Notes under the pieces: generated by a model
The model's input: only the letters and a program-made list of their open reading frames with translations
Databases searched by the model: none
What the model was told of the DNA's origin: nothing
Program-made: the position numbers and the translations under genes
Origin: an uncultured archaeon
GTDB taxonomy: Archaea; Hadarchaeota; Hadarchaeia; Hadarchaeales; WYZ-LMO6
Direction of reading: 5' to 3'
Assembly: GCA_938074535.1 (NCBI GenBank)
Contig: CALJER010000043.1
Span: forward strand, 1-42,096
Length of the DNA stretch: 42,096 nucleotides
Shown here: piece by piece, positions 10,209-32,256 of the stretch
How the letters are laid out: every line of letters starts with the position of its first letter
How positions within the stretch are numbered: the stretch's first letter is position 1

Positions 10209-11993
10209 ATGAGCCTCAGGTGCCCCATCGTAGCCATCCTGGGCCACGTGGACCACGGGAAAACCACCCTCCTGGACACCATACGGGGTACCGCGGTGGC
10301 CTCCAGGGAGCCGGGGAGAATCACCCAGTGGATAGGGGCTTCCGAGGTGCCCGTGGAGGCCATCAGGAAAATCAGCGGGGAGCTGATGAAGAGAATGGGC
10401 ATAGAGCTGGCGGTGCCAGGACTGCTCTTCGTGGATACCCCGGGACATGAGGCCTTCACCAACCTGAGGAAGAGGGGGGGAAGCTTGGCGGACCTGGCGG
10501 TCCTGGTGGTGGACGTGAAGGAAGGCTTCATGCCCCAGACCCTGGAGTCCCTCCAGATCCTGAGGACCTACAAGACTCCCTTTATGGTGGCCGCCAACAA
10601 GATCGACCTCCTGCCGGGGTGGAGGCCAGGAAAAGAACACAGCTTCCTCCAGGCCCTGCGCGGGCAGAGGCCGGAGACTCAGGCCCTTCTGGACCGGAGG
10701 GTTTACGAGCTGGTGGGAGAGCTCCACCGGCAGGGTTTCGACTCCGAGCGCTTCGACAGGGTGGCGGACTTCAGGAAGCAGGTGTGCATCGTCCCCATAA
10801 GCGCTAAAACGGGGGAGGGTCTGGCCGAGCTCCTCGTGGTGCTGGCCGGGCTGGCCCAGCGCTTCCTCAAGGAAGCCCTGACCGTCGAGGTCACGGGTCC
10901 GGGCAGGGGAACCGTGCTTGAGGTCAAGGAAGAAACCGGGCTGGGAACGGTGATGGACTTGATTCTGTACGACGGCAAGCTCTCCGTGGGGGATTCCTTC
11001 GCGGTGGTGGGCAGGGAGGGGGTGAGGGTCTCGAAGGTGAGGGCCATCCTCAAGCCCAGGCCCCTGGACGAGATAAGGGACCCCGAGGACCGCTTCCAGA
11101 GGGTGAAGAGCGTTGCAGCCGCGAGCGGGGTGAGGATCTCAGCACCCCAGCTGGAGGGCGTGGTGGCGGGAGCACCCTTCAGGGTGATAAGGGACCCCTC
11201 CGAGGCGCAGAAGTTCTGGGAGGAAGTGGAGGAGGAGATGAAGAGGGTGAGGATAGCCTCTGACATCAACGGGGTGGTCCTGAAGGCCGACACCCTCGGC
11301 TCGCTGGAGGCGCTGGAAGGACAGCTGAGGGGGAGGGGAGTACCCATAAGGAAGGCGGACGTGGGGGAAGTCTCCAAGAGAGACGTGGTGGAGGCCTCGA
11401 CCGTCTCCCAGAGCGATCCCCTGCTGGGGGTGGTGCTCGCCTTCAACGTTTCCATCCTCCCCGATGCCTGGGAGGAGGCCTCCAGGAGCGGGGTCAGCAT
11501 CCTCTCGGGGAAGGTGATCTACGAGCTCCTGGAGGAGTTCGACAGGTGGAGGGAGGAAAAGCAGAGGGAGGTGAGGGAGAAGAAGCTGGAGGGAGTCATC
11601 AGGCCTGCCAAGTTCTCCCTCAAGCCAGGATATGTCTTCAGGAGGAGCGAGCCCGCCATCGTGGGGATCTCCGTGCTGGGAGGGGTTCTCCGCCCCAAGT
11701 ACCCCGTGATGAGGAAGGACGGAAAGCCCGTGGGGAGGATCAGGGAGATGCAGCAGGAGAAGAAGAGCCTGCAGGAGGCCAGGAAAGGAGACGAACTGGC
11801 AGTCTCCATCGAGGGGGCGGTGGTGGGGAGGAACGTGAAGGAGGAAGACGTCCTCTTCACCGACATACCCAGGGACCACGCGCTGAAGCTCCAGAGGGAC
11901 CTGAGGGACCTCCTGAGCGGGGACGAGCGGGAGGTGCTGGACGAGATCCTCTCCATCAAACGCAGGGAGGATCCCACGTACGGGATGATGTGA
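10209..11993 (+). CDS. infB: Translation initiation factor aIF5B (IF-2)
   Basis: [28 protein letters not shown]; no intein; ATG 10209 preferred over GTG 10194. Confidence 0.96.
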
Positions 11994-16054: not shown

Positions 16055-17647
16055 TCAAGAATCCCCGGACCTGCCCTCCGCGCCGTCGCCCACTGCCCAG
16101 GAGAACTTCTTCAGGAGGGACTTGGGGTATATCCTCTCCACCCCGTATCCCACCTTCCTGGCCCAGGAGGCGTAGACCCTCGGATCGATGTAGGAGTTGA
16201 GGGAGGTGCCCAAGTTGAAGTCCCTTATCTCGCGCTCCAGCTCCAGCCTGAGCCTGAGCTCCCTTATCCTCTCCCTCAGCTTCCTCACCCTTTCCTCCGT
16301 CCTCTTTCCAGGCTTCTCCCGCAGCTCCGCTATCCTCCGCTCCAGCGCCCTTATCCTCTCCCTTATCCTCTCCATCTTTTTCTTCCATCCGGCGGGAACC
16401 TTGCGCTTGTGGTTCAGCTCCTCAGCAGCCCTCAGGTTGGCCATCTTGGCCGCGTACCTCTTCTCCATCTCCGTGCTCCCCCTCCCCACCTTCACCTTCT
16501 TCAGCTCCTCCTCCACTATCCTGGAGGCGTGGTAAGTGCGGAAGACCTTCGCCGTAAGACCCGGCATCGCTTCCCCCAGAAAGGAGTTAACATCCTCCGA
16601 ACTCACGCCCGGGAAAATCCTCTCTCCTCCCCTGCCCGCGAACTCCTTCAGGTTCCGGAGAACCTCGGGAGAGGGATCCAGGATCTTGGACCACCGCACA
16701 TGATCTTTACCCAAGAAGCTGAACTTCACCCTCCCTCCGTCGAACTTGAGGTGCTGCGGTCCCAGCGTGGTGGCCCCCACCGTGTTCCTCTCCTCCCTGT
16801 CCCTCTCGTCGCCCACCCTCAGCTTCAGCTCATCTATGAGATAGCAAACGGTTGCCACCATCCTGCGCTTGGGATCGGGATCCGAGAGACCCTTCCTTAT
16901 GTGCTCCCTCACTCTCTCAATCTTCCTGCCCAGCTCCCTGGCACGGTCGAACTTCTCCTTCTCCCTCTCCTGCTTCAGGGGGGAGGAGTCTGAGAGCCAG
17001 ACATACTTCATCTTTCCCGTGAGCTTGTCCCTCCACTTCGCTATCCAGAGGGCGCCCGGGTCCCACTCCCTCCCACCCCACCTCCTGCCGGCTGGGGCCT
17101 CCGGCATGGGTGCCTCGGGGGAGAGGTTGAGGATGATATCCTCGTACTCCACCCTGGGCTTCCACCTGCCCCTCTGGGGATGCTTTCCCCTCCCCACGAA
17201 AACACAGGGAGGTTCGACCGTGTAGTTCTTCACCTCCACCCTCTCCCCGTCGATCCAGGCCGTGCCCCATCTCTCCCTGTTGGCCTCCCTCAGGCGCCTG
17301 CGCTCCTCGGCCAGCCTCCTACGCTCCTCCCTCGTCATTTCCTCTTTTCTCTTCCTCTCCCGCTCAAGCCACTCCAACACGGGTGAAAAATCGAAATGCC
17401 CAAGCTCCGTGTCCCTGGGCAAACCCAGGGCCTCGCTGAAATCGGAGAGGAAGTTCCTCACGAAAACCCCGTCCTCCCCCCTGCCTGCCAGCAGGTGCCT
17501 GCCAAAGGCCACGGCCATTTCCTCCTGCTGGGGATTCAAATCCACCCTCTTTCCCCGGTACAGGATGTGCAGTCCCTTGAACTCGTAGGGCGGAAGCAGA
17601 ACGCCCTTGTGAACAAGGGATTTCATCCTCGCTTTCCTCTTTTCCAT
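16055..17647 (-). CDS. DNA topoisomerase IB, long eukaryote/Thaumarchaeota type
   Basis: VEPPCVFVGRGKHP.RG, catalytic pentad in LRVG, FLGKD, KVFRTY, LNHKR, NSYIDPR; coiled-coil linker. Start 17647 or 17626. Confidence 0.93.
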   Translation of the reverse strand: MEKRKARMKSLVHKGVLLPPYEFKGLHILYRGKRVDLNPQQEEMAVAFGRHLLAGRGEDGVFVRNFLSDFSEALGLPRDTELGHFDFSPVLEWLERERKRKEEMTREERRRLAEERRRLREANRERWGTAWIDGERVEVKNYTVEPPCVFVGRGKHPQRGRWKPRVEYEDIILNLSPEAPMPEAPAGRRWGGREWDPGALWIAKWRDKLTGKMKYVWLSDSSPLKQEREKEKFDRARELGRKIERVREHIRKGLSDPDPKRRMVATVCYLIDELKLRVGDERDREERNTVGATTLGPQHLKFDGGRVKFSFLGKDHVRWSKILDPSPEVLRNLKEFAGRGGERIFPGVSSEDVNSFLGEAMPGLTAKVFRTYHASRIVEEELKKVKVGRGSTEMEKRYAAKMANLRAAEELNHKRKVPAGWKKKMERIRERIRALERRIAELREKPGKRTEERVRKLRERIRELRLRLELEREIRDFNLGTSLNSYIDPRVYASWARKVGYGVERIYPKSLLKKFSWAVGDGAEGRSGDS

Positions 17648-17679
17648 CCTTTTCCGAAAAGACCTCAAGCTCTAAAAAG

Positions 17680-18006
17680 TTAGAACCTACCCCTCTGCTT
17701 CCACTGGAGAACATTCTCTTTCCACTTTTCATACTGCCGGATTTTGGAGGGGGTTCTGAGCCCCCCTTCTAGAAACTCCATAAGCGCCACTACCTCCCTC
17801 TTTTTTCTCACCTCCCAGCGGTAGAGGTTCCCTACCTTTTTTACCTCCCCCAGTCCCGTTGCTTCCCTCAGAAAAAGAAGGGTTTCTTTCTCCATCTGGG
17901 TGAGGAAGAAGGCCGGGTTCTGGTAACTCCTGCGCCCTGCCACCACCCTGTTGGTGGTGAAGCATCCCTTTGCTTCCAGGTATCCCAAGATCCAGTCCTT
18001 CTCCAT
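17680..18006 (-). CDS. Single-motif LAGLIDADG-fold protein (108 aa), catalytic residue degenerate
   Basis: WILGYLEAKGCF motif, P-F-LTQ, LGEV, YRWEV, LRTPSK..Y..W pattern of I-CreI-like proteins; ATG at 18006. Confidence 0.75.
   Translation of the reverse strand: MEKDWILGYLEAKGCFTTNRVVAGRRSYQNPAFFLTQMEKETLLFLREATGLGEVKKVGNLYRWEVRKKREVVALMEFLEGGLRTPSKIRQYEKWKENVLQWKQRGRF
17689..17709 (-). promoter_or_regulatory. Origin recognition box (ORB), left copy
   Basis: Minus strand CTCCAGTGGAAGCAGAGGGGT: TCCA-G-TGGA dyad plus G-string, matching the Orc1/Cdc6 ORB consensus. Confidence 0.8.
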
Positions 18007-18051
18007 ATTTGATATGTTTGTTACAAACGTTTGGGTAAAAATAATTAACAG

Positions 18052-18072
18052 CTCCAGTGGAAACAGAGGGGT
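18052..18072 (+). promoter_or_regulatory. Origin recognition box (ORB), right copy
   Basis: CTCCAGTGGAAACAGAGGGGT, 20/21 identical to the left copy and inverted; AT-rich tract 18005-18050 adjacent. Confidence 0.85.
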
Positions 18073-18118
18073 CTGTCCGAGAGATTTATAGGGGGGAAAA
18101 AGAAAATTTTGGGAGAGG

Positions 18119-18532
18119 GTGTTCGAGGAGGACTTCTTCGAGAAAATAAGGAGGATGGTCGAGGAGACGGAGAGGAAACAGGAGGAGATTTCGGTGGAGA
18201 TAAAGGGATCCGAAGCCTCCTCGGTGAGGGTCAGAAGAAGGGGTCCGAGAGTCCTAGAGCAGGTAAGCATACAGGAAACCCTGGAAACGGAGTACATGTG
18301 CCTGGAAAAACCCAGGGAGATGATTTTCTGCATGCACGTGCCCGGCGTGGAGAGGGAAGGCATAGAGATACGGAGGAGGGGAAGGGCGCTGGAAATCGTC
18401 GCGAAGAGGAGGGACGGGAGGGCCTACTTCTCAACCTTCGAACTCCCCCGGAACGCGGTTCCAGAGGAGCGCATTCTGAGGGTAAAGGATGGCCTTTTAG
18501 TTTTGATCATCCCAAAGAGGAAGAGAGTCTGA
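18119..18532 (+). CDS. Hsp20/alpha-crystallin small heat-shock protein
   Basis: VPGVEREGIEI, FELP, VKDGLLVLIIPK; TTTATA at 18085. Confidence 0.8.
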   Translation: MFEEDFFEKIRRMVEETERKQEEISVEIKGSEASSVRVRRRGPRVLEQVSIQETLETEYMCLEKPREMIFCMHVPGVEREGIEIRRRGRALEIVAKRRDGRAYFSTFELPRNAVPEERILRVKDGLLVLIIPKRKRV

Positions 18533-22629: not shown

Positions 22630-22861
22630 CCCAACGGGTCCGTGATGGGGCGGTAACTTCGGGTCACCTCTCTGGGAGAAGCCCTTTTTTGTTACACCGA
22701 CTGAAACGCGGTAGAAAGTCGGGAGGGAGGTGGAAAAGATATGCGTCCAATTTTTATGGAGGTAAAAAAATTTCACCGTCCTAAAAAAAGAGAATTCTTT
22801 TTTGTCACCGATGGGGAGATAAGAGCTCTCTTCGGACCGACGGTTAAGCGGGGGGAAACTC

Positions 22862-24886
22862 TTGGAAGAACTTGCCGGGGCTGAGGAGGAGCTCAAGGAG
22901 AAGTTGAGGGAGTTCTTCTCCCGCAGGAAGATCAGAAAAGAGCTGGAGGCTGCTCAGGCCGCGGGGAAAACCTCTTTGGTGGTGGAGTTCGATGACCTGA
23001 TAGCCCACGAGAAGGGATTTCTGGCCGACTCCCTGCTGAAGTCCCCGCATCGCTTCTTCCGTGTAGCGAACGAGCTGCTGGCCGAAGAGAGCGGCAACCC
23101 GAAGATGCAGCTGAGGGTGAAGGGGTCAGGAGAGGTCGTCAAAATTCGCAACTTGAGGGCGGGGCACGTGGGGAAGTTCATACAGGTGGAGGGCATTCTC
23201 ACGAGGGCCAGCGAGATAAAGCCAGAGATAAGGGAAGCCCTCTTCAGGTGCCTGCACTGCGGAGAGCTTAACTCGGTTCCGCAGAGCGAGGAGATTTTCA
23301 GGGAGCCCCTCAGCTGTCAGAACCCCAACTGCAGGAGAAGAGGTCCCTTCAAGCTGGAGGTGGAGAAGTCGGAGTTCAGGGACTGGCAGAGCCTCAGGGT
23401 TCAGGAGAAGCACGAGGAGCTGAGGGGAGGACGCATGCCCATGATGCTGGACTGCATCGTGAGGGACGACCTGGTCGACGTAGCGGTTCCGGGCAATCAT
23501 GTGGTGATGAGCGGGATTCTGGAGGTCTTCCAGGAGAGCGTCAAGCAGAGGAAGATGAAAACCTTCAGAAAGGTGCTCTACGTTTCCCACCTGGAGGTTT
23601 TGCAAAAAGGGGTGGAGGAGACCGAGCTCACGGAGGAGGACGAGAAGAAGATAAAGGAATTGATCAAGGATCCTTGGTTCTACCACAACGTCATCAAGTC
23701 CGTGGCGCCCAGCGTGCACGGTTACGAGGCGGTGAAGGAGGGAATAGCCTTGATGCTCTTCGGCTGCGATCCCCTGGAGCTTCCGGACAGGACCAGGATA
23801 AGAGGGGACATCCACATCCTCCTCACTGGAGATCCAGGCGTGGCGAAGAGCATGCTTCTCTCCTGGACGGCCAACGTGGCTCCGAGGGGCCTGTACACCT
23901 CCGGGAAGAAGGCCACGGGAGCGGGGCTGACGGCGGCGGCGGTCAGGGATGATCTCGGAGGCGGGTGGACCCTGGAGGCGGGTGCGCTGGTGATAGCCGA
24001 CGGTGGGGTAGCATGCATAGACGAATTTGACAAGATGGCGGATGAAGACAGGAGTGCCATCCTGGAAGCGTTGGAGCAGCAGACGATTTCAGTGGCCAAA
24101 GCCGGAATAGTGGCCACCCTCAACTCTAGAACCTCCGTGCTCGCAGCCTCCAACCCCAAGATGGGCAGACTGGACAGGAACCGCAACCTGGTCCAGCAGA
24201 TAGGTCTGGAGCCGGTGATCCTGTCCAGGTTCGACCTCATCTTCATCATAAGGGACGAACCGCACGGGGAGACCGACAAGAAAATTGCGAAGCACATGCT
24301 GGAGCTTCACAGGAAGCCGGAGATAGCCAGACCCCCCATAGACTCCGAAATGCTGCGGAAGCTGATCATCTACGCTAGGAAGCACATCCACCCCAAGTTG
24401 AAGGACGAGAAGGTGATCAAGAGGATGGAGGAGTTCTATGTCAAGTACAGGAGCGTGGCGGAAAGGGGGGAGCCGGTGCCCATCACCCCCAGGCAGCTTG
24501 AGTCCATCATAAGACTGGCCAAGGCCAGCGCCAGGATGCACTTCAGGGAGGAGGTGACGGAGGAGGATGCGAGCAGGGGCATAGAGCTCATCTCCAAGTA
24601 CCTGCAGGAGGCAGGCGTTGACACCGCCACGGGAAAGGTGGATATAGACTCCATCATCACGGGGAAGACCAAGAGCCAGAGGGACAAGGCCCAGAAGGTG
24701 ATGGACCTCATAGGGGAGTTGGAGAACAAGCACGGCGGCATGGCCCCGATAGAAGAAATCGTGCAGAGGGCCAAGGGGGAGGGAATAGAGGAGAGCTTCG
24801 TTCTCAAGTGGATAGAGGGAGAGAAGAGGGAGGGTTTCCTCTACGAGCCCAAGACAGGTTACGTGACGAGGGTGTTTAAAGGATGA
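22862..24886 (+). CDS. mcm: MCM replicative helicase
   Basis: Zn finger, GDPGVAKS, IDEFDKM, LSRFDL, ITPRQLES, C-terminal winged helix; no intein. Confidence 0.97.
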   Translation: MEELAGAEEELKEKLREFFSRRKIRKELEAAQAAGKTSLVVEFDDLIAHEKGFLADSLLKSPHRFFRVANELLAEESGNPKMQLRVKGSGEVVKIRNLRAGHVGKFIQVEGILTRASEIKPEIREALFRCLHCGELNSVPQSEEIFREPLSCQNPNCRRRGPFKLEVEKSEFRDWQSLRVQEKHEELRGGRMPMMLDCIVRDDLVDVAVPGNHVVMSGILEVFQESVKQRKMKTFRKVLYVSHLEVLQKGVEETELTEEDEKKIKELIKDPWFYHNVIKSVAPSVHGYEAVKEGIALMLFGCDPLELPDRTRIRGDIHILLTGDPGVAKSMLLSWTANVAPRGLYTSGKKATGAGLTAAAVRDDLGGGWTLEAGALVIADGGVACIDEFDKMADEDRSAILEALEQQTISVAKAGIVATLNSRTSVLAASNPKMGRLDRNRNLVQQIGLEPVILSRFDLIFIIRDEPHGETDKKIAKHMLELHRKPEIARPPIDSEMLRKLIIYARKHIHPKLKDEKVIKRMEEFYVKYRSVAERGEPVPITPRQLESIIRLAKASARMHFREEVTEEDASRGIELISKYLQEAGVDTATGKVDIDSIITGKTKSQRDKAQKVMDLIGELENKHGGMAPIEEIVQRAKGEGIEESFVLKWIEGEKREGFLYEPKTGYVTRVFKG

Positions 24887-25410
24887 AGGTCCACTGCACG
24901 GTCAGGAAGGATTTTGAGGCGGATCTGGGCGGCGGCCCATCCTCCTGGAGGGAGGGAGAAAGGGTCGAGCTGGAGCACTGGCAGATGAGGGTGCTGAGGA
25001 GGCACGGGCTGGCGGAGCCCCTCAACCCGCTGGGACTGGCCGCCGTGAGGAAGCTCCTGCTCCTGGAGGGTAAACAGCCGGGGCTCCAGCCCCTTCCGCA
25101 GGGTTTCTACGCGCTGCTGGCGGAGGAGATAGAGTACCGCAGGGAGAGGGGGGAGGAGGAGGCGGAAGAACTCAGGAGGGCGGCGGAAGATTTCCTGGAG
25201 CTGCGCCTGCAGAAGCTCGTGCGTTTGGCCCCCTTTCCCTCCCAGGCCAAGGGTGCCCTGCCGGAGGAAAGGGTGCTCTTGGAGGAGCTGGGCAGGGGGA
25301 TAGAGGAGTGGAGAAAGTGGATGAGTAAGAGGTTGAAGGTGGGGGAAAATGAGGGAAGGAGAACTCTTCGGGAGCTGGACGGAGAGAAGCCAGATCTTCA
25401 GGAACCGTGA
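24883..25410 (+). CDS. GINS subunit (Gins23-like, B-A domain order)
   Basis: ATGA-coupled to mcm; LQPLPQGFY, LRLQKL, LPEER motifs. Confidence 0.75.
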   Translation: MKVHCTVRKDFEADLGGGPSSWREGERVELEHWQMRVLRRHGLAEPLNPLGLAAVRKLLLLEGKQPGLQPLPQGFYALLAEEIEYRRERGEEEAEELRRAAEDFLELRLQKLVRLAPFPSQAKGALPEERVLLEELGRGIEEWRKWMSKRLKVGENEGRRTLRELDGEKPDLQEP

Positions 25411-26608
25411 GCTTCTCCGGCCCAGCTACCTGCCCGAGAGGCTCCCACACAGAGAGGAGCAGATCGGGAGGCTGGCGAGGATTCTATCCTTTCCCCTGAG
25501 GGGTGAGACCCCCTCCAACGTCTTCATCTACGGGAAGACGGGGACCGGTAAGACGGCTACCGTGAGGTACGTGCTGGGAGAGCTGGAGAAAATGGGGAGA
25601 AAGCTGAACCGGGGGATAAAGGGGATTTACCTGAACTGTGAGAGGGTGAACACCAGGTACCGCGTGCTGGCTACCCTCACCAACTCCCTCCTGAACGGCA
25701 CCTCCTCCGTCCCCACGACCGGCTGGCCCATCGATGTGCTGTACGAGACCTTCCTCAGGGTGCTGGACTCGGAGGAGCGCGTGCTGATCATAGTGATGGA
25801 CGAGGTGGACCGGATGGTGGTGAAGAAGGGGGATGAGGTGCTCTACGACCTCACCAGGGTGAACTCGGAGCTGGAGAGGGCAAAGGTGAGCGTGATAGGG
25901 ATCTCCAACGATGCCAGGTTCACCCACTACCTGGATCCGCGCGTGAGGAGCAGCTTGGGGGAGGAAGAGCTGGTGTTCCCCCCCTACGACGCCCTCCAGC
26001 TGAGGGACATCTTGGAAGAGAGGGCTTCCGGGGCCTTCCAGCCCGGGGCTCTGGAAGGGGGGGTTCTCTCCCTCTGTGCGGCCCACGCGGCGAGGGAGCA
26101 CGGTGACGCCAGGAGGGCGCTGGATCTCCTGAGGGTTGCGGGTGAGCTGTCGGAGCAGGAGGGAGCGATGCGTGTTACGCTGGAGCACGTGAGAAGAGCC
26201 TACGAAAAGCTGGAGGAGGACAAGATGGTGGAAATCGTCCGCACCCTCCCCAGCCAGTCCAAGCTGCTGCTCTTCAGTCTTTTGCTCCTGGTGGAGAGGG
26301 GTGCGGAAAAGGTGACCACGGGGGAGGTCTATGAGGCTTACCGGAGGGTGAGCCTCCAGAAGGGCCTGGATCCCCTCACCCCCCGCAGGGTGAGCGATCT
26401 TCTCTCGGAGCTTGAGATGCTGGGGGTGGTGAGCACCAGAATCCTCAACAGCGGCAGGTACGGCAGGACCAAGGAGATTTCCCTCAACCTCCCCACACGG
26501 CAGCTCAGAAAGATGCTGGAGGGGGATGGGATGCTCCTCCCCCACACCGTTTCTCTTCTTCGCCAGGCGAAGCTTGGGGGATGGGAATGGACGGGGGAAG
26601 CCTGGTAA
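25349..26608 (+). CDS. cdc6: Orc1/Cdc6 replication initiator
   Basis: YLPERLPHRE, GKTGTGKT, MDEVD, LDPRVRSSL, HGDARRALD, GRYGRT wing. Confidence 0.96.
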   Translation: MREGELFGSWTERSQIFRNRELLRPSYLPERLPHREEQIGRLARILSFPLRGETPSNVFIYGKTGTGKTATVRYVLGELEKMGRKLNRGIKGIYLNCERVNTRYRVLATLTNSLLNGTSSVPTTGWPIDVLYETFLRVLDSEERVLIIVMDEVDRMVVKKGDEVLYDLTRVNSELERAKVSVIGISNDARFTHYLDPRVRSSLGEEELVFPPYDALQLRDILEERASGAFQPGALEGGVLSLCAAHAAREHGDARRALDLLRVAGELSEQEGAMRVTLEHVRRAYEKLEEDKMVEIVRTLPSQSKLLLFSLLLLVERGAEKVTTGEVYEAYRRVSLQKGLDPLTPRRVSDLLSELEMLGVVSTRILNSGRYGRTKEISLNLPTRQLRKMLEGDGMLLPHTVSLLRQAKLGGWEWTGEAW

Positions 26609-28077
26609 GAAAATTCCAAGAGGCGCAGATGTGCCTCACTCCGGAGGCCCTCAGGCTCCTGGAGGGGAGGGGGGAGGAGGAGGCGGAGAAGGTGCTTTTG
26701 GCCCTCAGGGGGAAGGAGTTCATCGTCACCCAAGAGCTCGTGAGGAGGGTCCTGGAACCGGCGCCAGAAGTTCAGGAGGAGGGGAGGATGGAGCTCTCCC
26801 ACACCAGCTTCAAACCTCTGGCGGCGGAGGTGGAGGCCAGGGTGGAGGTGCTGAGGGACGTCACGGGAAAGAGCTACAGCAGGGGGGAGGTGAAGGACTT
26901 TCTCAACCTCTTCCTGGACAGATACGAGAGGCTGAGGGGCCTCCTCAGGGAGAGGAGCGACTACGCGGATGCACTGCCGCTGAGGGAGCTGAGGGGGATG
27001 GAGGAAGGGGAGCTGGTGAGGGTGGTGGGGATGGTGGCGGAGAGGAGGGAGACGGCAGGGGGACACCTCCTCATAAGGCTGGAGGACCCCACGGGACAGG
27101 CGGCGGTCTGGGTCTTCAGGGGAAAGAGCGAGGAGCTCATGGAGAAGGCAGCGGAGGTCGTGCCCGACGAGGTGATAGGGGTGGAGGGGACGGTGCGCTC
27201 GGGGGACAAGCTCCCCAGGATAGTGGCCAGGGACATAGTATGGCCCGACCTGCCCGTGCGGGCAGCCGCCAACAGGGCCGAGGAGCCGGTCTGCGCCGTC
27301 CTCATCTCGGACCTCCACGTGGGGAGCAAGATGTTCCTTCGTGGGACCTTTGAGAAGTTTCTCAGCTGGCTGGAGGGGAAGGTGGGGAAGGCTTCTCAGA
27401 GGGACATGGCGAGCAGGACGAAGTACCTCGTGGTGGCGGGCGACCTGGTGGACGGAATAGGGATCTATCCCCAGCAGGAAGAGGAGCTCTATCTCGACGA
27501 CATCTTCCAGCAGTACGAGGAGGTGGCCAGATTGCTGGAGAGGGTGCCCGATTACATAAAGATCATCCTCGCACCGGGGAACCACGACGCGGTCAGGCCC
27601 TCCGAGCCCCAGCCAGCGATTCCGCGGGAGGTGGGGGGGAGACTGTACGACCTGAACTCGGTGATGGTGGGCAACCCCGCCTGGGTCTCCCTGCACGGGG
27701 TGAAGTTCCTGATTTACCACGGTAGGAGCTTCGACGACTTGGCTTCCACCCTGCCGGGAGAAGGCAGGAACGAGGTCTCCTCCATGATGATAAGGCTTCT
27801 GAAGAAGAGGCACCTAGCTCCCATGTACGGGGGGAAGGTGGCGGTGGTGCCGGAGGAAAGGGACTTTCTGGTCATAGACGAGGTCCCCGACGTGCTTCAC
27901 TGCGGGCACATCCATATCTCGGGGCTCGGGAAGTACAAGAAGGTCTGGGCCGTTAACTCCGGGACCTTCCAGGGGATGACGAGCTACATGAGGGAGAGGG
28001 GTATCGTTCCCACTCCCGGGAGGGTGACGGTGATGGACCTCCAGAAGAACCATCCCTGGGTGATAGATTTTGCCTGA
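26581..28077 (+). CDS. polB: DNA polymerase D small (proofreading) subunit DP1
   Basis: OB fold, ISDLHVGS, GDLVDGIGIYP, PGNHD, YHGRS, RHLAP, GHIH, NSGTFQ. Confidence 0.96.
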   Translation: MGMDGGSLVRKFQEAQMCLTPEALRLLEGRGEEEAEKVLLALRGKEFIVTQELVRRVLEPAPEVQEEGRMELSHTSFKPLAAEVEARVEVLRDVTGKSYSRGEVKDFLNLFLDRYERLRGLLRERSDYADALPLRELRGMEEGELVRVVGMVAERRETAGGHLLIRLEDPTGQAAVWVFRGKSEELMEKAAEVVPDEVIGVEGTVRSGDKLPRIVARDIVWPDLPVRAAANRAEEPVCAVLISDLHVGSKMFLRGTFEKFLSWLEGKVGKASQRDMASRTKYLVVAGDLVDGIGIYPQQEEELYLDDIFQQYEEVARLLERVPDYIKIILAPGNHDAVRPSEPQPAIPREVGGRLYDLNSVMVGNPAWVSLHGVKFLIYHGRSFDDLASTLPGEGRNEVSSMMIRLLKKRHLAPMYGGKVAVVPEERDFLVIDEVPDVLHCGHIHISGLGKYKKVWAVNSGTFQGMTSYMRERGIVPTPGRVTVMDLQKNHPWVIDFA

Positions 28078-28855
28078 GCTTCGTGCCCTGGTGCTGGACC
28101 TGGACGGGGTCGTTTACGTGGGAAACAAATCCGTGGAGGGGGTGGCTGAGTTCCTTCACGAGTGGAGGGGGAAGGGCAGGAAGGTAGCCTTCGTCACCAA
28201 CAACTCCTCCCTCTCGAGAGGGGGATATGCCGCAAAGCTGGGAAAAATGGGAATCACCGCCCATCCCGGGGAGATCCTGACCTCAGGCTATCTCACGGCC
28301 GAGTACCTCCGGGGAAAGTCGCCCGGGGCGAGGGTCTATGTGGTGGGGGAAGGGGGGCTGAGGGAAGAGCTGAGGAGGGCTGGAATGAGGCTGGTGGGGG
28401 AGAGGGAATCGGCGGAGGCGGATTACGTGGTGGTGGGAATAGACAGGAAGTTCAACTACAGGAAGCTGGAGGCGGCTCTCAGGGCCCTGAACCGGGGGGC
28501 GGAGTTCCTGGCCACCAACGCGGATCCCACCTACCCCACCGAGAGGGGGCTCCTCCCAGGGGCCGGGGCCATGGTTGCGGCCCTTTCTTTTTCTTCGGGC
28601 AGGAGGCCCAGGATCATGGGGAAGCCCTCCACCAGGATGTACAGGGAGGCCCTCCGCCTCCTGGGGACGAGGCCGGGGGAGACGGCGGCGGTGGGGGACA
28701 GGCTGGACCTGGACGTGGCGCCCGCCAGGAGGCTGGGGATGGTTTCGATCCTGGTCTTGAGCGGGGTCACCAGGCGCGAGGACCTGAGGGGCCTCGAGGG
28801 AGGGAGGAGACCGGATTTGGTTCTGGAGAGGCTTCCTGACTTGGTGAGAGGATGA
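28070..28855 (+). CDS. HAD-IIA (NagD-like) phosphatase
   Basis: DLDGV, TNNS, TNAD, GKP, VGDRLDLD, VLSGV. Confidence 0.92.
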   Translation: MPELRALVLDLDGVVYVGNKSVEGVAEFLHEWRGKGRKVAFVTNNSSLSRGGYAAKLGKMGITAHPGEILTSGYLTAEYLRGKSPGARVYVVGEGGLREELRRAGMRLVGERESAEADYVVVGIDRKFNYRKLEAALRALNRGAEFLATNADPTYPTERGLLPGAGAMVAALSFSSGRRPRIMGKPSTRMYREALRLLGTRPGETAAVGDRLDLDVAPARRLGMVSILVLSGVTRREDLRGLEGGRRPDLVLERLPDLVRG

Positions 28856-31800
28856 AGGTGGAGATGAGCCAGTCGGTTGAGGCGTACTTCTCGGAGATAG
28901 AGCGCAGGGTGGAGGAAGCCTACGAGATCGCCCGCAGGGCCAGGCTGCAGGGAAAAGATCCCGAGCTGGAGCCCGAAATCCCCCAGGCGGAGGACATGGC
29001 CTCCAGGGTGGAGGAGATGGTGGGGCCCCCCGGGGTGAGCAGGGTGATAAGGGAGCTGGAGGGGAAGATGTCCCGCGAGGAGCTCGCCCTGAAGGTGGCG
29101 GAGATGATCGTGGACGGGGTGGTGGGTGAGGAGCCGAGCGACGAGAAGAGGGCGGAGCAGGCCGTGCGCACGGCCCTGGCTATCATCACCGAGGGAATAG
29201 CGGTGGCAGCTCCCCTGGAGGGTCTCACGGAGGTGAGGATAGAGAGGAATCCCGATGGCAGCCGGTACCTGGCCCTGTACTTCTCCGGGCCGATAAGGTC
29301 CGCGGGCGGGACGGCCGCCGCCCTGGCCGTGCTGGCGGGGGACTTCGTGCGCAGGAAGCTCTTGCTGGACAGATACAAGCCCACGAAGAGCGAGGTGGAG
29401 AGGTTCGTGGAGGAGGTCAACCTCTACTCCTCCGAGATTTCCCACCTCCAGTACACCCCCAGTCCGGACGAGGTCAGGCTGGCGGTGCGCAACCTTCCCG
29501 TGGAGATCACGGGTGAGCCCACGCACAGGGAGGTGATGGTGACGGCCTACCGCGACCTTCCCAGGGTGGGACACAACTTCGTCAGGGGTGGTGCCGTCCT
29601 GGCCCTCGCGGAGGGCGTGCTCCAGAAGGCCCCCAAGATCATGAAGTACGTGAGGAAGCTGGGGATGGAGGGATGGGATTGGCTGGAGGAGCTCATGCAG
29701 CATCCCGCTTCGGAGAAGGAGGAGGTGGAGGAGGCCAGGTACCTGGAGGAGGTGATAGGGGGGAGGCCCGTCATCTCCTACCCCGGAAGGCCCGGTGGCT
29801 TCAGGCTCAGGTACGGGAGAGCGAGGAACACGGGCATAGCGGCGGTGGGTGTGCACCCCGCCACCATGGTGGTGCTGGGAGGCTTTCTCGCGGTGGGCAC
29901 GCAGCTCAAGCTGGAGCGTCCCGGCAAGGGGGGGGCCGTGGCCCCCGTGGATACCATAGAGGGTCCCACGGTGAAGCTCCAGGACGGCTCCGTGGTGAGG
30001 GTTTCCTCCGTGGAGGAGGCGGAGAGGCTGAAAGGTCAGATAGAGGAAATCCTGTGCCTGGGGGACCTCCTGGTGGACTTCGGGGAGTTCCTGGAGAACA
30101 ACCATCCCCTTCTCCCCGCGGGATACTGCGAGGAGTGGTGGGCCCAGGAGGTGGAGCGGGCGGGTAAGGGGTTCCCGCAGGATCTCTCCCCCTACCTCTT
30201 CCCCCCCTATCCCGTCCCTCCCCCCGGGCTGGCGGTGGAAATCTCGGAGAAGCTGGGAGTTCCCCTTCATCCCTGGTACACCTACCTCTACCACGAGGTG
30301 GAGAGGGAGGACCTCCTCAGGCTGGCCAGGTGGCTGTGCCGGGGGGAGGCCGAGTTCGAGGGGGAAGAGCTCAAGGGTCTGACCCTGCCGCTTGAAAGGG
30401 AGCCCAAGAGGATCCTGGAGCTCCTCTGCGTGCCCCACCGGGTGGAGGGGGACAGGGTCAGGATAGAGGAGCACGCCCTCCCCCTCTGCCGGACGCTGGG
30501 GATTCTGAAGGGAAGGGAGAGGACCACGGAGAGGCTGGAGGCGGAGGATGAGAGGGACGTGATGCTCCTGCTGGAGAAAGTGGCCGGCTTTCCCGTCAGG
30601 AGGAAGGCCCCCACCTGGATAGGGAGCAAGATGGGGAGGCCGGAGAAGGCGAAGCCCAGGGAGATGGATCCCCCTCCCCACCTCCTCTTTCCGGTGGGGC
30701 AGGCGGGTGGTCCCACCAGGAGCCTCCTGAAGGCCGCCTCCTCCAGGGAGGAACTGAGGGTGGAGCTGGCGAACCTGAAGTGCCCCTCCTGCGGCACGCT
30801 GGGAATCACAAGGAAGTGCCCCTCCTGCGGGGAGAAAACGGAGTTCGTGAAGCTCTGCCCCAAGTGCGGCAGACCCGCCAGGGGGAGGTGCCAGACCTGC
30901 GGGGCGAGGGAGGAGTTCTTCAGCGAGAGGCTGGTGAACCTGAAGGAAATGCTGGAGGAGGCCGAGAAAAGGCTGGGGGAAAAGGCGCCGGCGGACCTCA
31001 AGGGTGTGAGGGGGATGAGCAGCGCCTACAAAGTGCCGGAGCCCCTGGAGAAAGGAATTCTAAGGGCGAAGCATGGTCTGCGCGTGTTCAAGGACGGGAC
31101 CGTGCGCTTCGATGCCACCAACCTTCCTCTCACCCATTTCCGTCCCAAAGAGGTGGGGGTCTCGGTGGAGCGTCTGAGGGAGCTCGGCTACACCAGGGAC
31201 TACCTGGGGGAGCCCCTGGAGAGGGAGGATCAGCTGGTGGAGCTGAAGGTGCAGGATCTCCTCCTTTGTGAAGAGGGTGCCAAGTACTTGCTCGGGGTTT
31301 CCAAGTTCCTGGACGAGCTCCTCCAGAAGTTTTACGGTTTGCCCCCCTACTACAGGGCGCAGCGCAAGGAGGACCTCCTGGGCCACCTGGTTCTGGGTCT
31401 TTCCCCCCACACCTCCGTGGGCATGGTGGGGAGAATAGTGGGCTTCACGAAGGCCAACGTGGGTTATGCCCACCCCTACTTCCACGCCGCCAAGCGCCGC
31501 GATTGCGACGGCGACGAAGATGCCGTGATGCTCCTGCTGGATGCCCTCCTCAACTTCAGCAGGAAGTTCCTCCCCGCGAGCAGGGGGGGCTTCATGGATG
31601 CCCCCCTCGTCCTCAACCTGAGGATAGATCCCAGGGAGGTGGACAAGGAGGTCCACAACATGGATGTCATGTTCAGGTACCCGCTCGAGTTCTACGAGGC
31701 CACCCTCAAACAGGTTCATCCCAGCGAGGTGCTGGCCAGGATGGAAACCGTGGAGAAGAGGCTCGGGACCAGGGGCCAGTACGAGGGCCTGGCCTTCAAC

Positions 31801-32256
31801 GTGCACACCTCGGACCTCTCCAGTGGACCCCTCGTCTCCATCTATTCCACCCTGGAGACCATGGAGGAGAAGGTGATGGCGCAGCTGAACCTGGCCAGGA
31901 AGATCAGGGCGGTGGACGAGAGGGATGTGGCGGAGAGGGTGATAGAGCACCACCTCATCCCGGACCTGAAGGGCAACCTGCGCAAGTTCTCCACCCAGCA
32001 GTTCAGGTGCACGAGCTGCAACGCGAAGTACAGGCGCCTTCCCCTCACCGGGGTTTGCAGCGAGTGCGGGGGGAACCTCGTCCTCACCGTTCCCAGAGGG
32101 GGTGTGGAAAAGTACCTGCGCACCGCCATGAGGGTGGCGGAGGAGTTCGGAGTGAGAGAATACACCAAGCAGCGTCTGAAGCTGATGGAGAGTGACATAA
32201 AGTCGGTGTTTGAGAGCGATGCCGAGAAACAGACCAGCTTGGCCGACTTTCTGTGA
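28852..32256 (+). CDS. polC: DNA polymerase D large catalytic subunit DP2
   Basis: GPIRSAGGT, GRPEKA, AKRRDCDGDED, Zn fingers, C-terminal PIP box QTSLADFL; no intein. Confidence 0.97.
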   Translation: MKVEMSQSVEAYFSEIERRVEEAYEIARRARLQGKDPELEPEIPQAEDMASRVEEMVGPPGVSRVIRELEGKMSREELALKVAEMIVDGVVGEEPSDEKRAEQAVRTALAIITEGIAVAAPLEGLTEVRIERNPDGSRYLALYFSGPIRSAGGTAAALAVLAGDFVRRKLLLDRYKPTKSEVERFVEEVNLYSSEISHLQYTPSPDEVRLAVRNLPVEITGEPTHREVMVTAYRDLPRVGHNFVRGGAVLALAEGVLQKAPKIMKYVRKLGMEGWDWLEELMQHPASEKEEVEEARYLEEVIGGRPVISYPGRPGGFRLRYGRARNTGIAAVGVHPATMVVLGGFLAVGTQLKLERPGKGGAVAPVDTIEGPTVKLQDGSVVRVSSVEEAERLKGQIEEILCLGDLLVDFGEFLENNHPLLPAGYCEEWWAQEVERAGKGFPQDLSPYLFPPYPVPPPGLAVEISEKLGVPLHPWYTYLYHEVEREDLLRLARWLCRGEAEFEGEELKGLTLPLEREPKRILELLCVPHRVEGDRVRIEEHALPLCRTLGILKGRERTTERLEAEDERDVMLLLEKVAGFPVRRKAPTWIGSKMGRPEKAKPREMDPPPHLLFPVGQAGGPTRSLLKAASSREELRVELANLKCPSCGTLGITRKCPSCGEKTEFVKLCPKCGRPARGRCQTCGAREEFFSERLVNLKEMLEEAEKRLGEKAPADLKGVRGMSSAYKVPEPLEKGILRAKHGLRVFKDGTVRFDATNLPLTHFRPKEVGVSVERLRELGYTRDYLGEPLEREDQLVELKVQDLLLCEEGAKYLLGVSKFLDELLQKFYGLPPYYRAQRKEDLLGHLVLGLSPHTSVGMVGRIVGFTKANVGYAHPYFHAAKRRDCDGDEDAVMLLLDALLNFSRKFLPASRGGFMDAPLVLNLRIDPREVDKEVHNMDVMFRYPLEFYEATLKQVHPSEVLARMETVEKRLGTRGQYEGLAFNVHTSDLSSGPLVSIYSTLETMEEKVMAQLNLARKIRAVDERDVAERVIEHHLIPDLKGNLRKFSTQQFRCTSCNAKYRRLPLTGVCSECGGNLVLTVPRGGVEKYLRTAMRVAEEFGVREYTKQRLKLMESDIKSVFESDAEKQTSLADFL

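What the first reader, a model, noticed from the sequence alone, without database searches (positions are those of the whole stretch)
17680..18090. Candidate replication origin whose two ORBs enclose a degenerate LAGLIDADG gene, next to TopIB
Seen: two 21-bp inverted copies (20/21 identical) of CTCCAGTGGAA(A/G)CAGAGGGGT at 17689-17709 and 18052-18072, an AT-rich tract at 18005-18050, and a 108-aa LAGLIDADG gene filling the space between. Gene orientation diverges here: four genes run left and about 15 kb, including mcm-gins-cdc6-PolD, run right. Known: this is the Orc1/Cdc6 ORB consensus, but origins are usually non-coding and adjacent to cdc6. Inference: an origin module (ORB, domesticated homing-endonuclease DNA-binding protein, ORB, TopIB) detached from cdc6 by about 7 kb. 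Caveat: the G-strings point outward, whereas as I recall they face the unwinding element in characterised origins.
Basis: partly seen in the sequence, partly recalled or inferred. Interest (0 to 1): 0.88.

Follow-up and report, generated by a model that had tools for sequence, protein, structure and literature searches.

The report
Replication origin housing a domesticated endonuclease gene
This is very probably the chromosome's replication origin in a Hadarchaeales archaeon, and unusually the space between its two initiator-binding boxes holds a conserved gene for a homing-endonuclease-like protein that lacks the usual catalytic residue.

Summary
Two inverted 21-mers (20/21 identical) at 17689-17709(-) and 18052-18072(+) are the only such sites in the window and in the 1.2-Mb genome. 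They match the printed archaeal ORB consensus. They flank a 45-bp tract of 76% A+T and a 108-aa LAGLIDADG gene (17680-18006, -).

The origin reading is strongly supported. The same (-)/(+) ORB pair recurs at the syntenic place across the phylum. In 3 of 3 long contigs of relatives, the cumulative G+T skew minimum falls at most about 0.8 kb from the pair. The nearby Cdc6 is of the Orc1-1 type.

The LAGLIDADG gene sits between the ORBs in 11 of 11 genomes with 362-417-bp spacing. It is absent in 8 of 8 with 91-234-bp spacing. It is under purifying selection (dN/dS 0.05-0.28) and has a confident LAGLIDADG fold with a modelled homodimer. Lysine replaces the catalytic acid. Its last codons are themselves the left ORB.

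TopIB lies beside the origin only in this genus, so it is not part of a module. The protein's role at the origin is inferred, not shown.

An earlier scan note (e1-1239367) placed a hadarchaeal origin upstream of mcm in another genome.

The parts
18052..18072 (+). ORB-R: origin recognition box, G-string pointing right (outward), directly beside the A+T-rich tract
   Evidence: Exact 21-mer, one of only two such sites in the genome. GGAAACAGAGGGGT is identical to the printed 'Ca. M. alvus' ORB2. The whole site is close to the 'Archaea consensus ORB' printed in Table 2 of PMC4153887. Orthologous sites occur across the phylum.
18007..18051 (.). A+T-rich tract: candidate duplex-unwinding element and, by inference, promoter of the LAGLIDADG gene. 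Contains the 13-nt palindrome GTTTGTTACAAAC (18016-18028).
   Evidence: 75.6% A+T against 37.6% for the window. The palindrome is unique in the genome. Spacers of gene-free origins in relatives have GC 0.21-0.36 against 0.38-0.61 for their loci. The promoter role is inferred from position only.
17680..18006 (-). 108-aa single-domain LAGLIDADG protein gene (stop codon 17680-17682). Motif ILGYLEAKG, with K13 at the catalytic position.
   Evidence: Pfam LAGLIDADG_1. AF2 model pLDDT 93.2, pTM 0.84. TMq 0.85 to I-TnaI 5gkk and I-Vdi141I 3e54. K aligns to the E of GFIEAEG / GFIDGEG. dN/dS 0.05-0.28. Orthologues were collected from 24 of the 25 relatives with a hit, plus this window; all are open over the aligned region except one cut by a contig end, and 16 were checked from start to stop. 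Single copy in this genome.
17689..17709 (-). ORB-L: origin recognition box, G-string pointing left (outward), embedded in codons 100-106 of the LAGLIDADG CDS
   Evidence: The Arg105 codon is AGG in 16 of 16 orthologues, and the Q/E codon ends in G in 16 of 16. Another invariant Arg column uses three different third bases.
25349..26608 (+). Orc1-1-type Cdc6 initiator, the presumed reader of the two ORBs (acts in trans, 7.3 kb away)
   Evidence: Pfam Cdc6_C, Cdc6_lid and AAA. E 1.9e-108 to S. solfataricus Orc1-1 (2qby_A) and 2.2e-104 to A. pernix ORC1 (2v1u_A), both solved on ORB-type DNA. The second paralogue, on contig C23, is far weaker (7.4e-44).
22862..32256 (+). Replication gene island mcm-gins-cdc6-PolD small subunit-HAD-PolD large subunit, linked to the origin throughout the order
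   Evidence: Pfam. Synteny in L030-L044.
16055..17668 (-). Type IB topoisomerase gene: a neighbour, not a conserved part of the origin
   Evidence: Pfam Topoisom_I, Topoisom_I_N and Topo_C_assoc. Adjacent to the ORBs only in genus g1.

Best explanation
This is the chromosomal replication origin (oriC1 type) of a Hadarchaeales archaeon.

How it most likely works (inferred from characterised origins): the Orc1-1-type Cdc6 encoded 7.3 kb away binds ORB-L and ORB-R as monomers of opposite polarity. Its AAA+ domains lie on the outward G-strings and its winged-helix domains face inward. DNA opens at the 45-bp A+T-rich tract beside ORB-R. MCM is loaded between the boxes and forks leave in both directions.

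The unusual part is the 342-bp inter-ORB space. Relatives with the plain form have 70-200 bp of non-coding A+T-rich DNA there. Here most of it is taken up by a gene for a small homodimeric LAGLIDADG protein that has lost the catalytic acid (K13).

The gene most likely entered the origin spacer as a free-standing homing endonuclease gene in an ancestor of families f1 and f2. It has since been inherited vertically and kept by selection on the protein. It has become interwoven with the origin: its 3' end is an ORB, and in family f2 it also carries an internal mini-ORB.

My preferred reading of its present role is a sequence-specific DNA-binding protein that acts at or on the origin, transcribed from within the unwinding region. 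That last step is inference only.
For: ORB identity. The sites match the printed consensus and the Methanomassiliicoccales ORBs (PMC4153887 Table 2). Relatives' variants CTCCAGTGGAAATGAA equal the first 16 nt of the reverse complement of the P. furiosus ORB2 gel-shift oligo (PMC1904270).

Uniqueness: 2 sites per genome.

Conservation. The stricter pattern is found in 23 of 41 relatives and the looser one in 55 of 66 genomes of the phylum. All 19 genomes with a same-contig pair within 500 bp have the order (-) then (+).

Position. The pair lies between the mcm/SHMT/homoserine-dehydrogenase block and a ParA gene, beside a class-I aaRS gene that is orthologous within f1/f2 and only 38-39% identical and inverted in most f4/f5 loci.

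Skew. The cumulative (G+T)-(A+C) minimum is at 326,419 in G002:C2 (440 kb; ORBs 326,353-326,734), with the best step at 318-328 kb, F about 100. It is at 89,091 in G010:C2 (250 kb; ORBs 87,869-88,277), step 88,000, F 39. It is at 790,858 in G013:C1 590-990 kb (ORBs about 790,996-791,105), step 790,000, F 146, with the GC-skew minimum at 790,950. In all three the top strand is G+T-rich to the right of the switch, as expected of an origin rather than a terminus.

Initiator type.

Gene. Spacing is bimodal and tracks the gene: 11 of 11 genomes with 362-417 bp carry it, and 8 of 8 with 91-234 bp lack it. See also dN/dS, fold and the K at the catalytic position. The homodimer model scores ipSAE 0.52 against 0.00 for the best of 3 controls; the mark was reached by 20 of 30 proteins solved as pairs of one chain and 1 of 23 solved as single chains. 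The three runs agree in at least 93% of contacts, partner pLDDT is at least 88, and the interface is the LAGLIDADG helix, residues 1-13. The LAGLIDADG tree splits f1 from f2 at 100/99 and groups the resolved genera (g1, g16, most of g10) without supported conflict.
Against: No binding, unwinding or initiation has been measured.

The skew tests are on relatives. The window's own 42-kb contig is too short (best step at 18,000, but F only 2-3). In G002, GC skew alone switches at about 366 kb and AT skew alone at about 280-300 kb; only their sum points at the ORBs. The regressions use crude ORF-based gene calls.

cdc6 is not adjacent to the origin.

A second Cdc6 paralogue exists whose sites are unknown, so further origins are not excluded.

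For the protein there is no evidence of what DNA it binds, and no RNA data (see Tried and rejected). The downstream ORB is recognisable at up to 5 mismatches in only 11 of 16 gene-bearing loci; the other 5 carry a diverged TGGAGTGGAA..AGGGCG version. 40 of 66 genomes of the phylum do without the gene, and gene-free origins were seen directly in 8 of them, so it is not essential for origin function.
Confidence: 0.8

Rival explanations
1. The site is the origin, but the LAGLIDADG gene is only a selfish free-standing homing endonuclease gene. It uses the unique, conserved inter-ORB spacer as its homing site and cycles through invasion, decay and loss. It does nothing for the host.
For: Distribution is patchy: 26 of 66 genomes, and within family f2 19 of 46. 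Gene-free 'empty' origins exist in the same family (G028 g14, G013 g9). In the aaRS tree the gene-free genera g13/g14 sit beside g3 (91/85) and g9 sits inside the g10/g12 clade (87/96), so several losses or gains are needed. 5 of 24 orthologues keep E at the catalytic position. A 114-aa paralogue with an intact GFVEGEG motif exists elsewhere in a relative (L080).
Against: The catalytic position is K, A, R, C or G in 19 of 24 orthologues, and K in all 6 of family f1. Reading frames are open over the aligned region in 23 of 24 (one is cut by a contig end), and dN/dS is 0.05-0.28 even where dS exceeds 1. That is not the decay expected after fixation. The gene tree follows taxonomy with no supported conflict. 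The gene is single-copy in this genome. The CDS has absorbed an ORB, which argues for long residence.
Confidence: 0.14
2. The two boxes are Orc1/Cdc6-type operator sites that regulate transcription of the LAGLIDADG, TopIB and Hsp20 genes. Replication starts elsewhere.
For: Both boxes are followed on their outer side by TATA-like runs about 25-30 nt before the flanking start codons (read; inference). Non-initiator Orc1 paralogues that act as transcription regulators are known (PMC9738581, abstract in the listing). A second Cdc6 paralogue is present.
Against: Skew minima coincide with the pair in 3 of 3 contigs examined, from two families and from both spacing classes. No other ORB cluster exists in the genome. 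The flanking genes differ between lineages while the boxes stay.
Confidence: 0.04
3. The inverted 21-mers are terminal inverted repeats of a small mobile element that carries the LAGLIDADG gene.
For: An inverted repeat brackets a homing-endonuclease-like gene.
Against: There is one copy per genome. The same repeats occur in the same orientation without any gene between them in 8 genomes. The sequence is the pan-archaeal ORB. One repeat lies inside the CDS.
Confidence: 0.02

Closest known systems
oriC1-type archaeal origins (Sulfolobus ORB3-DUE-ORB2; Haloarcula hispanica oriC1; Aeropyrum ori1)
   Same: Consensus ORBs in inverted orientation with outward G-strings around an A+T-rich element. An Orc1-1-type initiator. 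Both boxes are needed in the models (PMC12141716, PMC3936714, PMC6742236; passages).
   Different: The Sulfolobus unit is 130 bp and non-coding. Here the boxes are 342 bp apart, the space is mostly a protein-coding gene, one box is coding sequence, and cdc6 lies 7.3 kb away.
Thermococcales oriC-cdc6-dp1 island with a second ORB/mini-ORB cluster inside the dp1 coding sequence
   Same: An ORB written into a coding sequence and bound by Cdc6 in vivo. Two long ORBs form an inverted repeat with mini-ORBs. PolD genes lie nearby (PMC1904270, abstract and passages).
   Different: There the coding ORBs are a second cluster in a replication gene. Here a primary ORB (plus a mini-ORB in family f2) lies in a LAGLIDADG gene that sits between the primary boxes.
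Origin accessory and initiator proteins of Sulfolobus: UBP on the ucm motif, and WhiP at oriC3
   Same: UBP binds midway between the two ORBs and touches MCM (PMC12141716). WhiP binds repeats inside its own ORF next to oriC3 (PMC3607249). Both are precedents for a protein acting inside an origin and for origin signals inside an ORF.
   Different: The folds are unrelated. For the LAGLIDADG protein no DNA target or partner is known. The likeness is in how it may work, not in family membership.
Homodimeric LAGLIDADG homing endonucleases (I-Vdi141I 3e54, I-TnaI 5gkk, I-CreI)
   Same: Same fold (TMq 0.79-0.85), sequence-level homology (E 2.2e-10 to 3e54), and a modelled dimer through the LAGLIDADG helix.
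   Different: 108 aa against 150-170 aa. Lysine replaces the catalytic acid. It is not in an intron or intein. It forms a discrete Hadarchaeota-only subfamily: 7 representatives at E of 3.8e-27 or better, and the next hit at 4.7e-18.
WhiA-type domesticated LAGLIDADG DNA-binding regulators of bacteria (recalled, not checked in any call)
   Same: The LAGLIDADG scaffold is kept for DNA binding after loss of catalysis.
   Different: WhiA has two degenerate domains plus a helix-turn-helix and is not origin-resident. No homology test was made here.

Membership tests
Archaeal Orc1/Cdc6-dependent replication origin (oriC1 type) | Repeats matching the ORB consensus (dyad TCCAGTGGA, GGAAA, G-string) | tested here: met
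   GGAAACAGAGGGGT is identical to a printed Methanomassiliicoccales ORB. The whole site is near the printed pan-archaeal consensus.
Archaeal Orc1/Cdc6-dependent replication origin (oriC1 type) | ORBs of opposite polarity flanking an A+T-rich unwinding element, G-strings distal | tested here: met
   Polarity rule from PMC3936714 and PMC6742236. The spacer is 342 bp and only 45 bp of it is strongly A+T-rich.
Archaeal Orc1/Cdc6-dependent replication origin (oriC1 type) | Site is unique or clustered in the genome and conserved in relatives | tested here: met
Archaeal Orc1/Cdc6-dependent replication origin (oriC1 type) | Cognate Orc1-1-type initiator encoded, usually adjacent | tested here: inconclusive
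   An Orc1-1-type gene is present but 7.3 kb away. The linkage is conserved across the order. Adjacency itself is not met.
Archaeal Orc1/Cdc6-dependent replication origin (oriC1 type) | Strand-composition switch with origin polarity at the site | tested here: met
   Met in 3 of 3 relatives' contigs. Inconclusive on the window's own 42-kb contig.
Archaeal Orc1/Cdc6-dependent replication origin (oriC1 type) | Initiator binding and initiation in vivo (footprint, marker frequency, 2D gels) | not testable with these tools
   Only assembled contigs of one DNA run hold the stretch.
LAGLIDADG homing endonuclease | LAGLIDADG alpha-beta-beta-alpha-beta-beta-alpha fold and family profile match | tested here: met
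LAGLIDADG homing endonuclease | Acidic metal-binding residue just before the last G of the motif (I-CreI D20; recalled) | tested here: not met
   K13 aligns to the E of I-Vdi141I, I-AabMI and I-TnaI. Across 24 orthologues the position is K 14, E 5, A 2, R 1, C 1, G 1.
LAGLIDADG homing endonuclease | Single-domain members act as homodimers | tested here: inconclusive
   The model supports a dimer: ipSAE 0.52 against 0.00 for the best of 3 controls. The mark was reached by 20 of 30 solved pairs of one chain and 1 of 23 single chains. Like complexes are solved, so the pass may reflect memory.
LAGLIDADG homing endonuclease | Mobility: occupied and empty alleles of one site, with gene tree discordant from host tree | tested here: inconclusive
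   Occupied and empty origins both exist, but the gene tree shows no supported conflict with taxonomy. Both trees are poorly resolved.

The most novel reading that the evidence does not exclude
A former homing endonuclease has been recruited as an origin-specific factor. On this reading, the catalytically dead LAGLIDADG dimer is expressed from a promoter inside the unwinding element. It binds within oriC and tunes Orc1 binding, MCM loading or origin firing. Its coding sequence doubles as initiator-binding DNA, so helicase loading would occur on a transcribed gene. This would be the first archaeal origin with a dedicated, origin-encoded accessory protein derived from a selfish element.
Probability: 0.3. 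Interest if true: 0.85.

Novelty: new variant of a known kind. Interest (0 to 1): 0.68.

Why it matters
Archaeal origins are described as non-coding ORB-DUE-ORB units next to cdc6. Here a well-supported origin has kept a protein-coding gene inside the zone where the helicase should be loaded. It has done so across two families of an uncultured phylum, and natural gene-free versions exist for comparison.

This gives a concrete case of a selfish endonuclease gene settling in a replication origin and being kept. It also adds a case of initiator-binding sites encoded in protein-coding DNA.

It yields testable questions. Does Orc1 bind a box that is being translated? Does transcription through the origin help or hinder firing? 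What does the dead endonuclease bind?

It also supplies an origin annotation, checked by strand skew in three genomes, for Hadarchaeota. The two literature searches run here turned up none: 0 papers hold both 'LAGLIDADG' and 'origin recognition box', and none of the 12 listed of 1,090 papers on Hadesarchaea/Hadarchaeota with origin terms was on point.

Tried and rejected
I used the genome search over the phylum instead. The family was therefore not looked for in genomic context outside the 66 Hadarchaeota genomes. The protein-only searches found no close member named from another phylum.

2. The palindrome TTGTTAY-N4-RTAACAA in origin spacers was considered as the LAGLIDADG target or an origin-specific 'ucm'. 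It was rejected. It occurs many times per genome, most of all in gene-free family f4 (44, 29 and 22 sites per strand in G011, G019 and G014, against 0-4 for the reversed-pattern control). It does not occur in G000. A first scan used the wrong spacing, N5, and is uninformative.

3. RNA evidence: no RNA holder is listed. One DNA run, kept as contigs, holds the stretch and may be its source. Read laying was not used, since contigs give neither depth nor transcripts.

4. A second origin near the Cdc6 paralogue on contig C23: no ORB-like core was found there. This does not exclude other site types.

5. The 227-aa ORF 17680-18363 listed is an upstream extension. The N-termini of 16 orthologues place the start at 18006.

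6. The mobile-element (terminal inverted repeat) reading and the operator-only reading are treated under rivals.

7. The search of earlier findings near this place returned nothing.

8. Supplementary files of the papers were not opened. Supplementary figures of PMC1904270 and PMC12141716 may show ORB orientation directly.
Full report
WHAT IS THERE

The window is one whole 42,096-bp contig (C43) of a 1.206-Mb genome in 53 contigs, 93.6% complete.

At 17689-17709(-) and 18052-18072(+) lie two inverted 21-mers that differ at one base. With up to 3 mismatches they are the only matches in the window, against 0 in 100 shuffles. They are also the only matches in the genome. The looser core T[CT]CA[GC]TGGAA[AG] occurs 3 times in the genome, 2 of them here.

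Between the boxes are 342 bp. These comprise a 45-bp tract of 75.6% A+T (window mean 37.6%) directly inside the right box, followed by a 108-aa ORF on the minus strand (18006 down to 17680). The ORF matches Pfam LAGLIDADG_1 end to end. The left box is not beside the gene but in it: it forms codons 100-106, LQWKQRG.

Pfam confirms the neighbours:
- Leftward: TopIB, a class-I aaRS and a ParA-type ATPase.
- Rightward: Hsp20, a 151-aa ORF, homoserine dehydrogenase, a PLP enzyme, SHMT, MCM, GINS, Cdc6, PolD small subunit, a HAD hydrolase and PolD large subunit.

Named close homologues of the small protein all come from Hadarchaeales, Hadarchaeum or Hadesarchaea assemblies. That places the organism in this group.

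ARE THE REPEATS ORBs, AND IS THEIR ORIENTATION ODD?

Table 2 of PMC4153887 (read as passages) prints the 'Archaea consensus ORB' CTTCCAGTGGAAACGAAAGGGGT. It also prints Methanomassiliicoccales ORBs such as GTTCCACTGGAAACAG-AGGGGT, whose last 14 nt are identical to the right box here. Variants in relatives (CTCCAGTGGAAATGAA...) equal the first 16 nt of the reverse complement of the P. furiosus ORB2 gel-shift oligo printed in PMC1904270.

The literature shows this is the normal arrangement:
- In Haloarcula hispanica oriC1 the mutated C-run sits at the left end and the G-run at the right end of the minimal ORB-A+T-ORB origin. The G-string is the part read by the AAA+ domain (PMC3936714, passages).
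- A review states that the winged-helix and lid domains face each other across the DUE (PMC6742236, passages).

Outward G-strings are therefore canonical. All 19 genomes of the phylum with two boxes on one contig within 500 bp have them in the order (-) then (+) (my reading of the places listed).

CONSERVATION

The 21-mer, at up to 3 mismatches, is found in 23 of 41 relatives at 1-2 copies each. A shorter pattern, at up to 1 mismatch, is found in 55 of 66 genomes of the phylum.

In 20-kb stretches around the boxes the place is syntenic across the order. It lies between the mcm/SHMT/PLP/homoserine-dehydrogenase block and a ParA gene, beside a class-I aaRS gene. That aaRS is orthologous within f1/f2, and only 38-39% identical and inverted in most f4/f5 loci.

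Spacing between the boxes is bimodal:
- 362-417 bp start to start in 11 genomes, all in families f1 and f2. All 11 carry the LAGLIDADG gene.
- 91-234 bp in 8 genomes, in families f4, f5 and the outgroup f6. None of the 8 carries it.

Gene-free short forms also exist inside f2: G028 at 119 bp and G013 at about 110 bp. The short spacers have GC 0.21-0.36 against 0.38-0.61 for their loci.

TopIB occurs in 42 of 66 genomes. It is next to the boxes only in genus g1. In G010 and G013, checked against the ORB places, it lies on another contig or 326 kb away. G005, of the sister genus, has the LAGLIDADG gene directly beside the aaRS with no TopIB.

IS IT AN ACTIVE ORIGIN?

The window's own contig is too short to test: the best step is at 18,000, but F is only 2-3. 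I therefore rebuilt three long contigs of relatives from 20-kb pieces and computed cumulative skews. I also fitted a regression that removes a crude gene-strand term and scans for one step.

| Contig | Family, form | Keto-skew minimum | ORB pair | Best step |
|---|---|---|---|---|
| G002:C2, 440 kb | same genus, long form | 326,419 | 326,353-326,734 | 318-328 kb, F about 100 |
| G010:C2, 250 kb | f2, long form | 89,091 | 87,869-88,277 | 88,000, F 39 |
| G013:C1, 590-990 kb | f2, short form | 790,858 | about 790,996-791,105 | 790,000, F 146 |

In G002, GC skew alone gives about 366 kb and AT skew alone about 280-300 kb, so the precision there is tens of kb. In G013 the profile is a sharp V and the GC-skew minimum is at 790,950.

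In all three contigs the top strand becomes G+T-rich to the right of the switch. By the usual leading-strand rule (established knowledge) that marks an origin, not a terminus. Three hits within about 1 kb on contigs of 250-440 kb would be very unlikely by chance, roughly 1e-7 if positions were uniform. That figure is a rough estimate, and the genomes are related.

The Cdc6 in the window is of the ORB-reading type: E 1.9e-108 to S. solfataricus Orc1-1 and 2.2e-104 to A. pernix ORC1. The second paralogue, on contig C23, is far weaker and has no ORB-like core nearby.

THE GENE BETWEEN THE BOXES

A profile of 16 orthologues finds the family in 26 of 66 genomes:
- f1: 5 of 5, plus this genome.
- f2: 19 of 46. 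Genera g3, g7, g10, g12 and g16 have it. Genus g9 (0 of 14), g13 (0 of 3), g18 (0 of 2) and four single-genome genera do not.
- f4: 1 of 9, and that hit is a weak paralogue in a provirus-like context.
- f5, f3 and f6: none.

Public proteins give 74 members, all at E of 1.7e-29 or better. In the exhaustive representative search, 7 clusters score E of 3.8e-27 or better and the next hit is 4.7e-18. So it is a discrete subfamily.

All 16 aligned genes are open from start to stop. Of the 24 collected later, 23 are open over the aligned region and one is cut by a contig end. Pairwise dN/dS is 0.05-0.28 where dS is not saturated, although dS is mostly above 0.8.

The AF2 model is confident (pLDDT 93.2, pTM 0.84). 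It superposes on the homodimeric enzymes I-TnaI and I-Vdi141I (TMq 0.85) and on I-CreI (0.79-0.80).

In the profile alignment the motif ..LEAKG aligns to GFIEAEG (I-Vdi141I), GFIDGEG (I-AabMI) and GFVDGEG (I-TnaI). So lysine 13 occupies the place of the metal-binding acid. The identity of that place with I-CreI D20 is recalled. Across 24 orthologues this position is K 14, E 5, A 2, R 1, C 1 and G 1.

Two copies are modelled as a dimer through residues 1-13:
- ipSAE 0.52, against 0.00 for the best of 3 controls.
- The mark was reached by 20 of 30 proteins solved as pairs of one chain and 1 of 23 solved as single chains.
- The three runs agree in at least 93% of their contacts, and the partner's pLDDT is at least 88.
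- Like complexes are solved, so this shows likeness rather than proof.

CODING SEQUENCE AND ORIGIN SIGNALS ARE INTERWOVEN

In the codons that form the downstream box:
- Arg105 is AGG in 16 of 16 orthologues.
- The Q/E codon ends in G in 16 of 16.
- Leu100 is CTC in 9 of 15 Leu codons; the sixteenth sequence has Phe TTC there.
- By contrast, another invariant Arg column uses three different third bases.

In 11 of 16 loci the downstream box is within 5 mismatches of the consensus. In 5 loci (genera g3 and g10) it has drifted to [CT]TGGAGTGGAA[AG]..AGGGCG, encoding LEWK.RA.

Family f2 genes also carry a mid-gene mini-ORB, T[CG]CA[CG]TGGAAA, encoding S/P-A/P-L/V-E. Its synonymous sites are conserved: A in 10 of 11, G in 9 of 11 and A in 10 of 11. 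Genus g1 lacks it.

Coding ORBs have a precedent in the dp1 cluster of Thermococcales, which Cdc6 binds in vivo (PMC1904270).

HISTORY OF THE GENE

The LAGLIDADG tree separates f1 from f2 at 100/99 and groups the resolved genera (g1, g16, most of g10) with no supported conflict.

In the aaRS tree, gene-free genera nest among gene-bearing ones: g13/g14 beside g3 (91/85), and g9 inside the g10/g12 clade (87/96). The simplest account is one ancient insertion between the A+T-rich element and the downstream box, vertical descent, and several clean losses. Repeated gains by homing are not excluded, because both trees are poorly resolved.

A 114-aa paralogue with an intact GFVEGEG motif elsewhere in a relative (L080) shows that small active-looking relatives exist in the phylum.

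HOW IT MOST LIKELY WORKS

Shown by sequence, comparison or modelling:
- Canonical boxes in canonical polarity.
- An A+T-rich tract.
- A skew switch at the orthologous site in relatives.
- An Orc1-1-type initiator.
- A selected, folded, probably dimeric protein without the catalytic acid.

Inferred by analogy with Sulfolobus and Haloarcula:
- Orc1 binds both boxes.
- DNA opens at 18007-18051.
- MCM loads between the boxes.

Inferred from position only:
- The gene's promoter lies in that tract, with a start codon 45 nt from the right box.
- Transcription runs through the left box.
- The protein acts on the origin.

40 of 66 genomes lack the gene, and gene-free origins were seen directly in 8 of them. 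The protein therefore cannot be essential for initiation; a modulating or lineage-specific role is the most that fits.

COMPARISON AND VERDICT

As an origin this is a member of the oriC1 kind. Every sequence-level criterion is met except adjacency to cdc6, and binding and firing are untested.

As a LAGLIDADG protein it belongs to the fold family but fails the catalytic-residue criterion. I therefore do not file it as an endonuclease.

What is new is the combination: a long-conserved, selected gene inside the helicase-loading interval of a chromosomal origin, with initiator sites written into its codons. The searches behind that statement are limited:
- 'LAGLIDADG' together with 'origin recognition box': 0 papers.
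- Hadesarchaea/Hadarchaeota with origin terms: the 12 listed of 1,090 papers were read as listings only, and none was on point.

Two earlier notes of this scan, both unchecked AI notes, touch on it. e1-1239367 placed the main origin of another hadarchaeal genome about 9 kb upstream of mcm, which agrees with the map. e1-1161947 reported ORBs inside DNA-binding protein genes beside a Pacearchaeota origin, which I did not test.

Noticed in passing
window 18016-18028; L043, L044, L048, L082 and L085 spacers: Origin spacers across the phylum carry a palindrome of the type TTGTTAY-N4-RTAACAA about 25-35 nt inside the (-) box. In the window this is GTTTGTTACAAAC, unique in the genome. The motif is not origin-specific. 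It occurs up to 44 times per strand in other genomes (reversed-pattern control 0-5), often as TTGTTATATATATAACAA. It may be a global operator or a TATA-centred promoter element.
   Followed up: partly
window 22684-22700 and 22797-22813 (upstream of mcm): CTTTTTTGT(T/C)AC is repeated twice in the mcm upstream region. Together with the copy in the origin's A+T-rich tract, these are 3 of only 10 genome-wide matches to TTTGT[TC]AC. This is a possible shared regulatory site for the origin and the replication genes. An earlier scan note described a repeat array upstream of mcm in another hadarchaeal genome.
   Followed up: partly
window 16055-17668 (-): A eukaryote-type topoisomerase IB (three Pfam domains, E down to 9e-62) is present in 42 of 66 Hadarchaeota genomes: f1 4/5, f2 34/46, f5 3/3, f4 0/9. 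It has moved next to the origin only in genus g1.
   Followed up: partly
L036 167-3328 and L044 13-2664 (relatives G022, G011): The mcm gene of two relatives is interrupted by about 1.1 kb between residues about 326 and 327 of the window's MCM. This looks like an intein insertion. It was not examined further.
   Followed up: no
L080 1501-1845 (G039:C36): A 114-aa free-standing LAGLIDADG paralogue with an intact GFVEGEG motif, located away from the origin. It is a possible living relative of the ancestor of the origin-resident gene.
   Followed up: no
window 17670-17688 and 18073-18091: The inverted similarity extends about 19 nt beyond each G-string (40-nt arms, 75% complementary). It ends in TATA-like runs (CTTTTTAGAG / ATTTATAG) about 25-30 nt before the TopIB and Hsp20 start codons. 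Orc1 bound at the boxes could therefore also affect both flanking promoters.
   Followed up: no
G000 contig C23 about 10,300-11,540 (L051 643-1875): A second, divergent Cdc6/Orc1 paralogue (E 7.4e-44 to Sso Orc1-1) with no ORB-like core nearby. Its DNA sites and role are unknown.
   Followed up: partly
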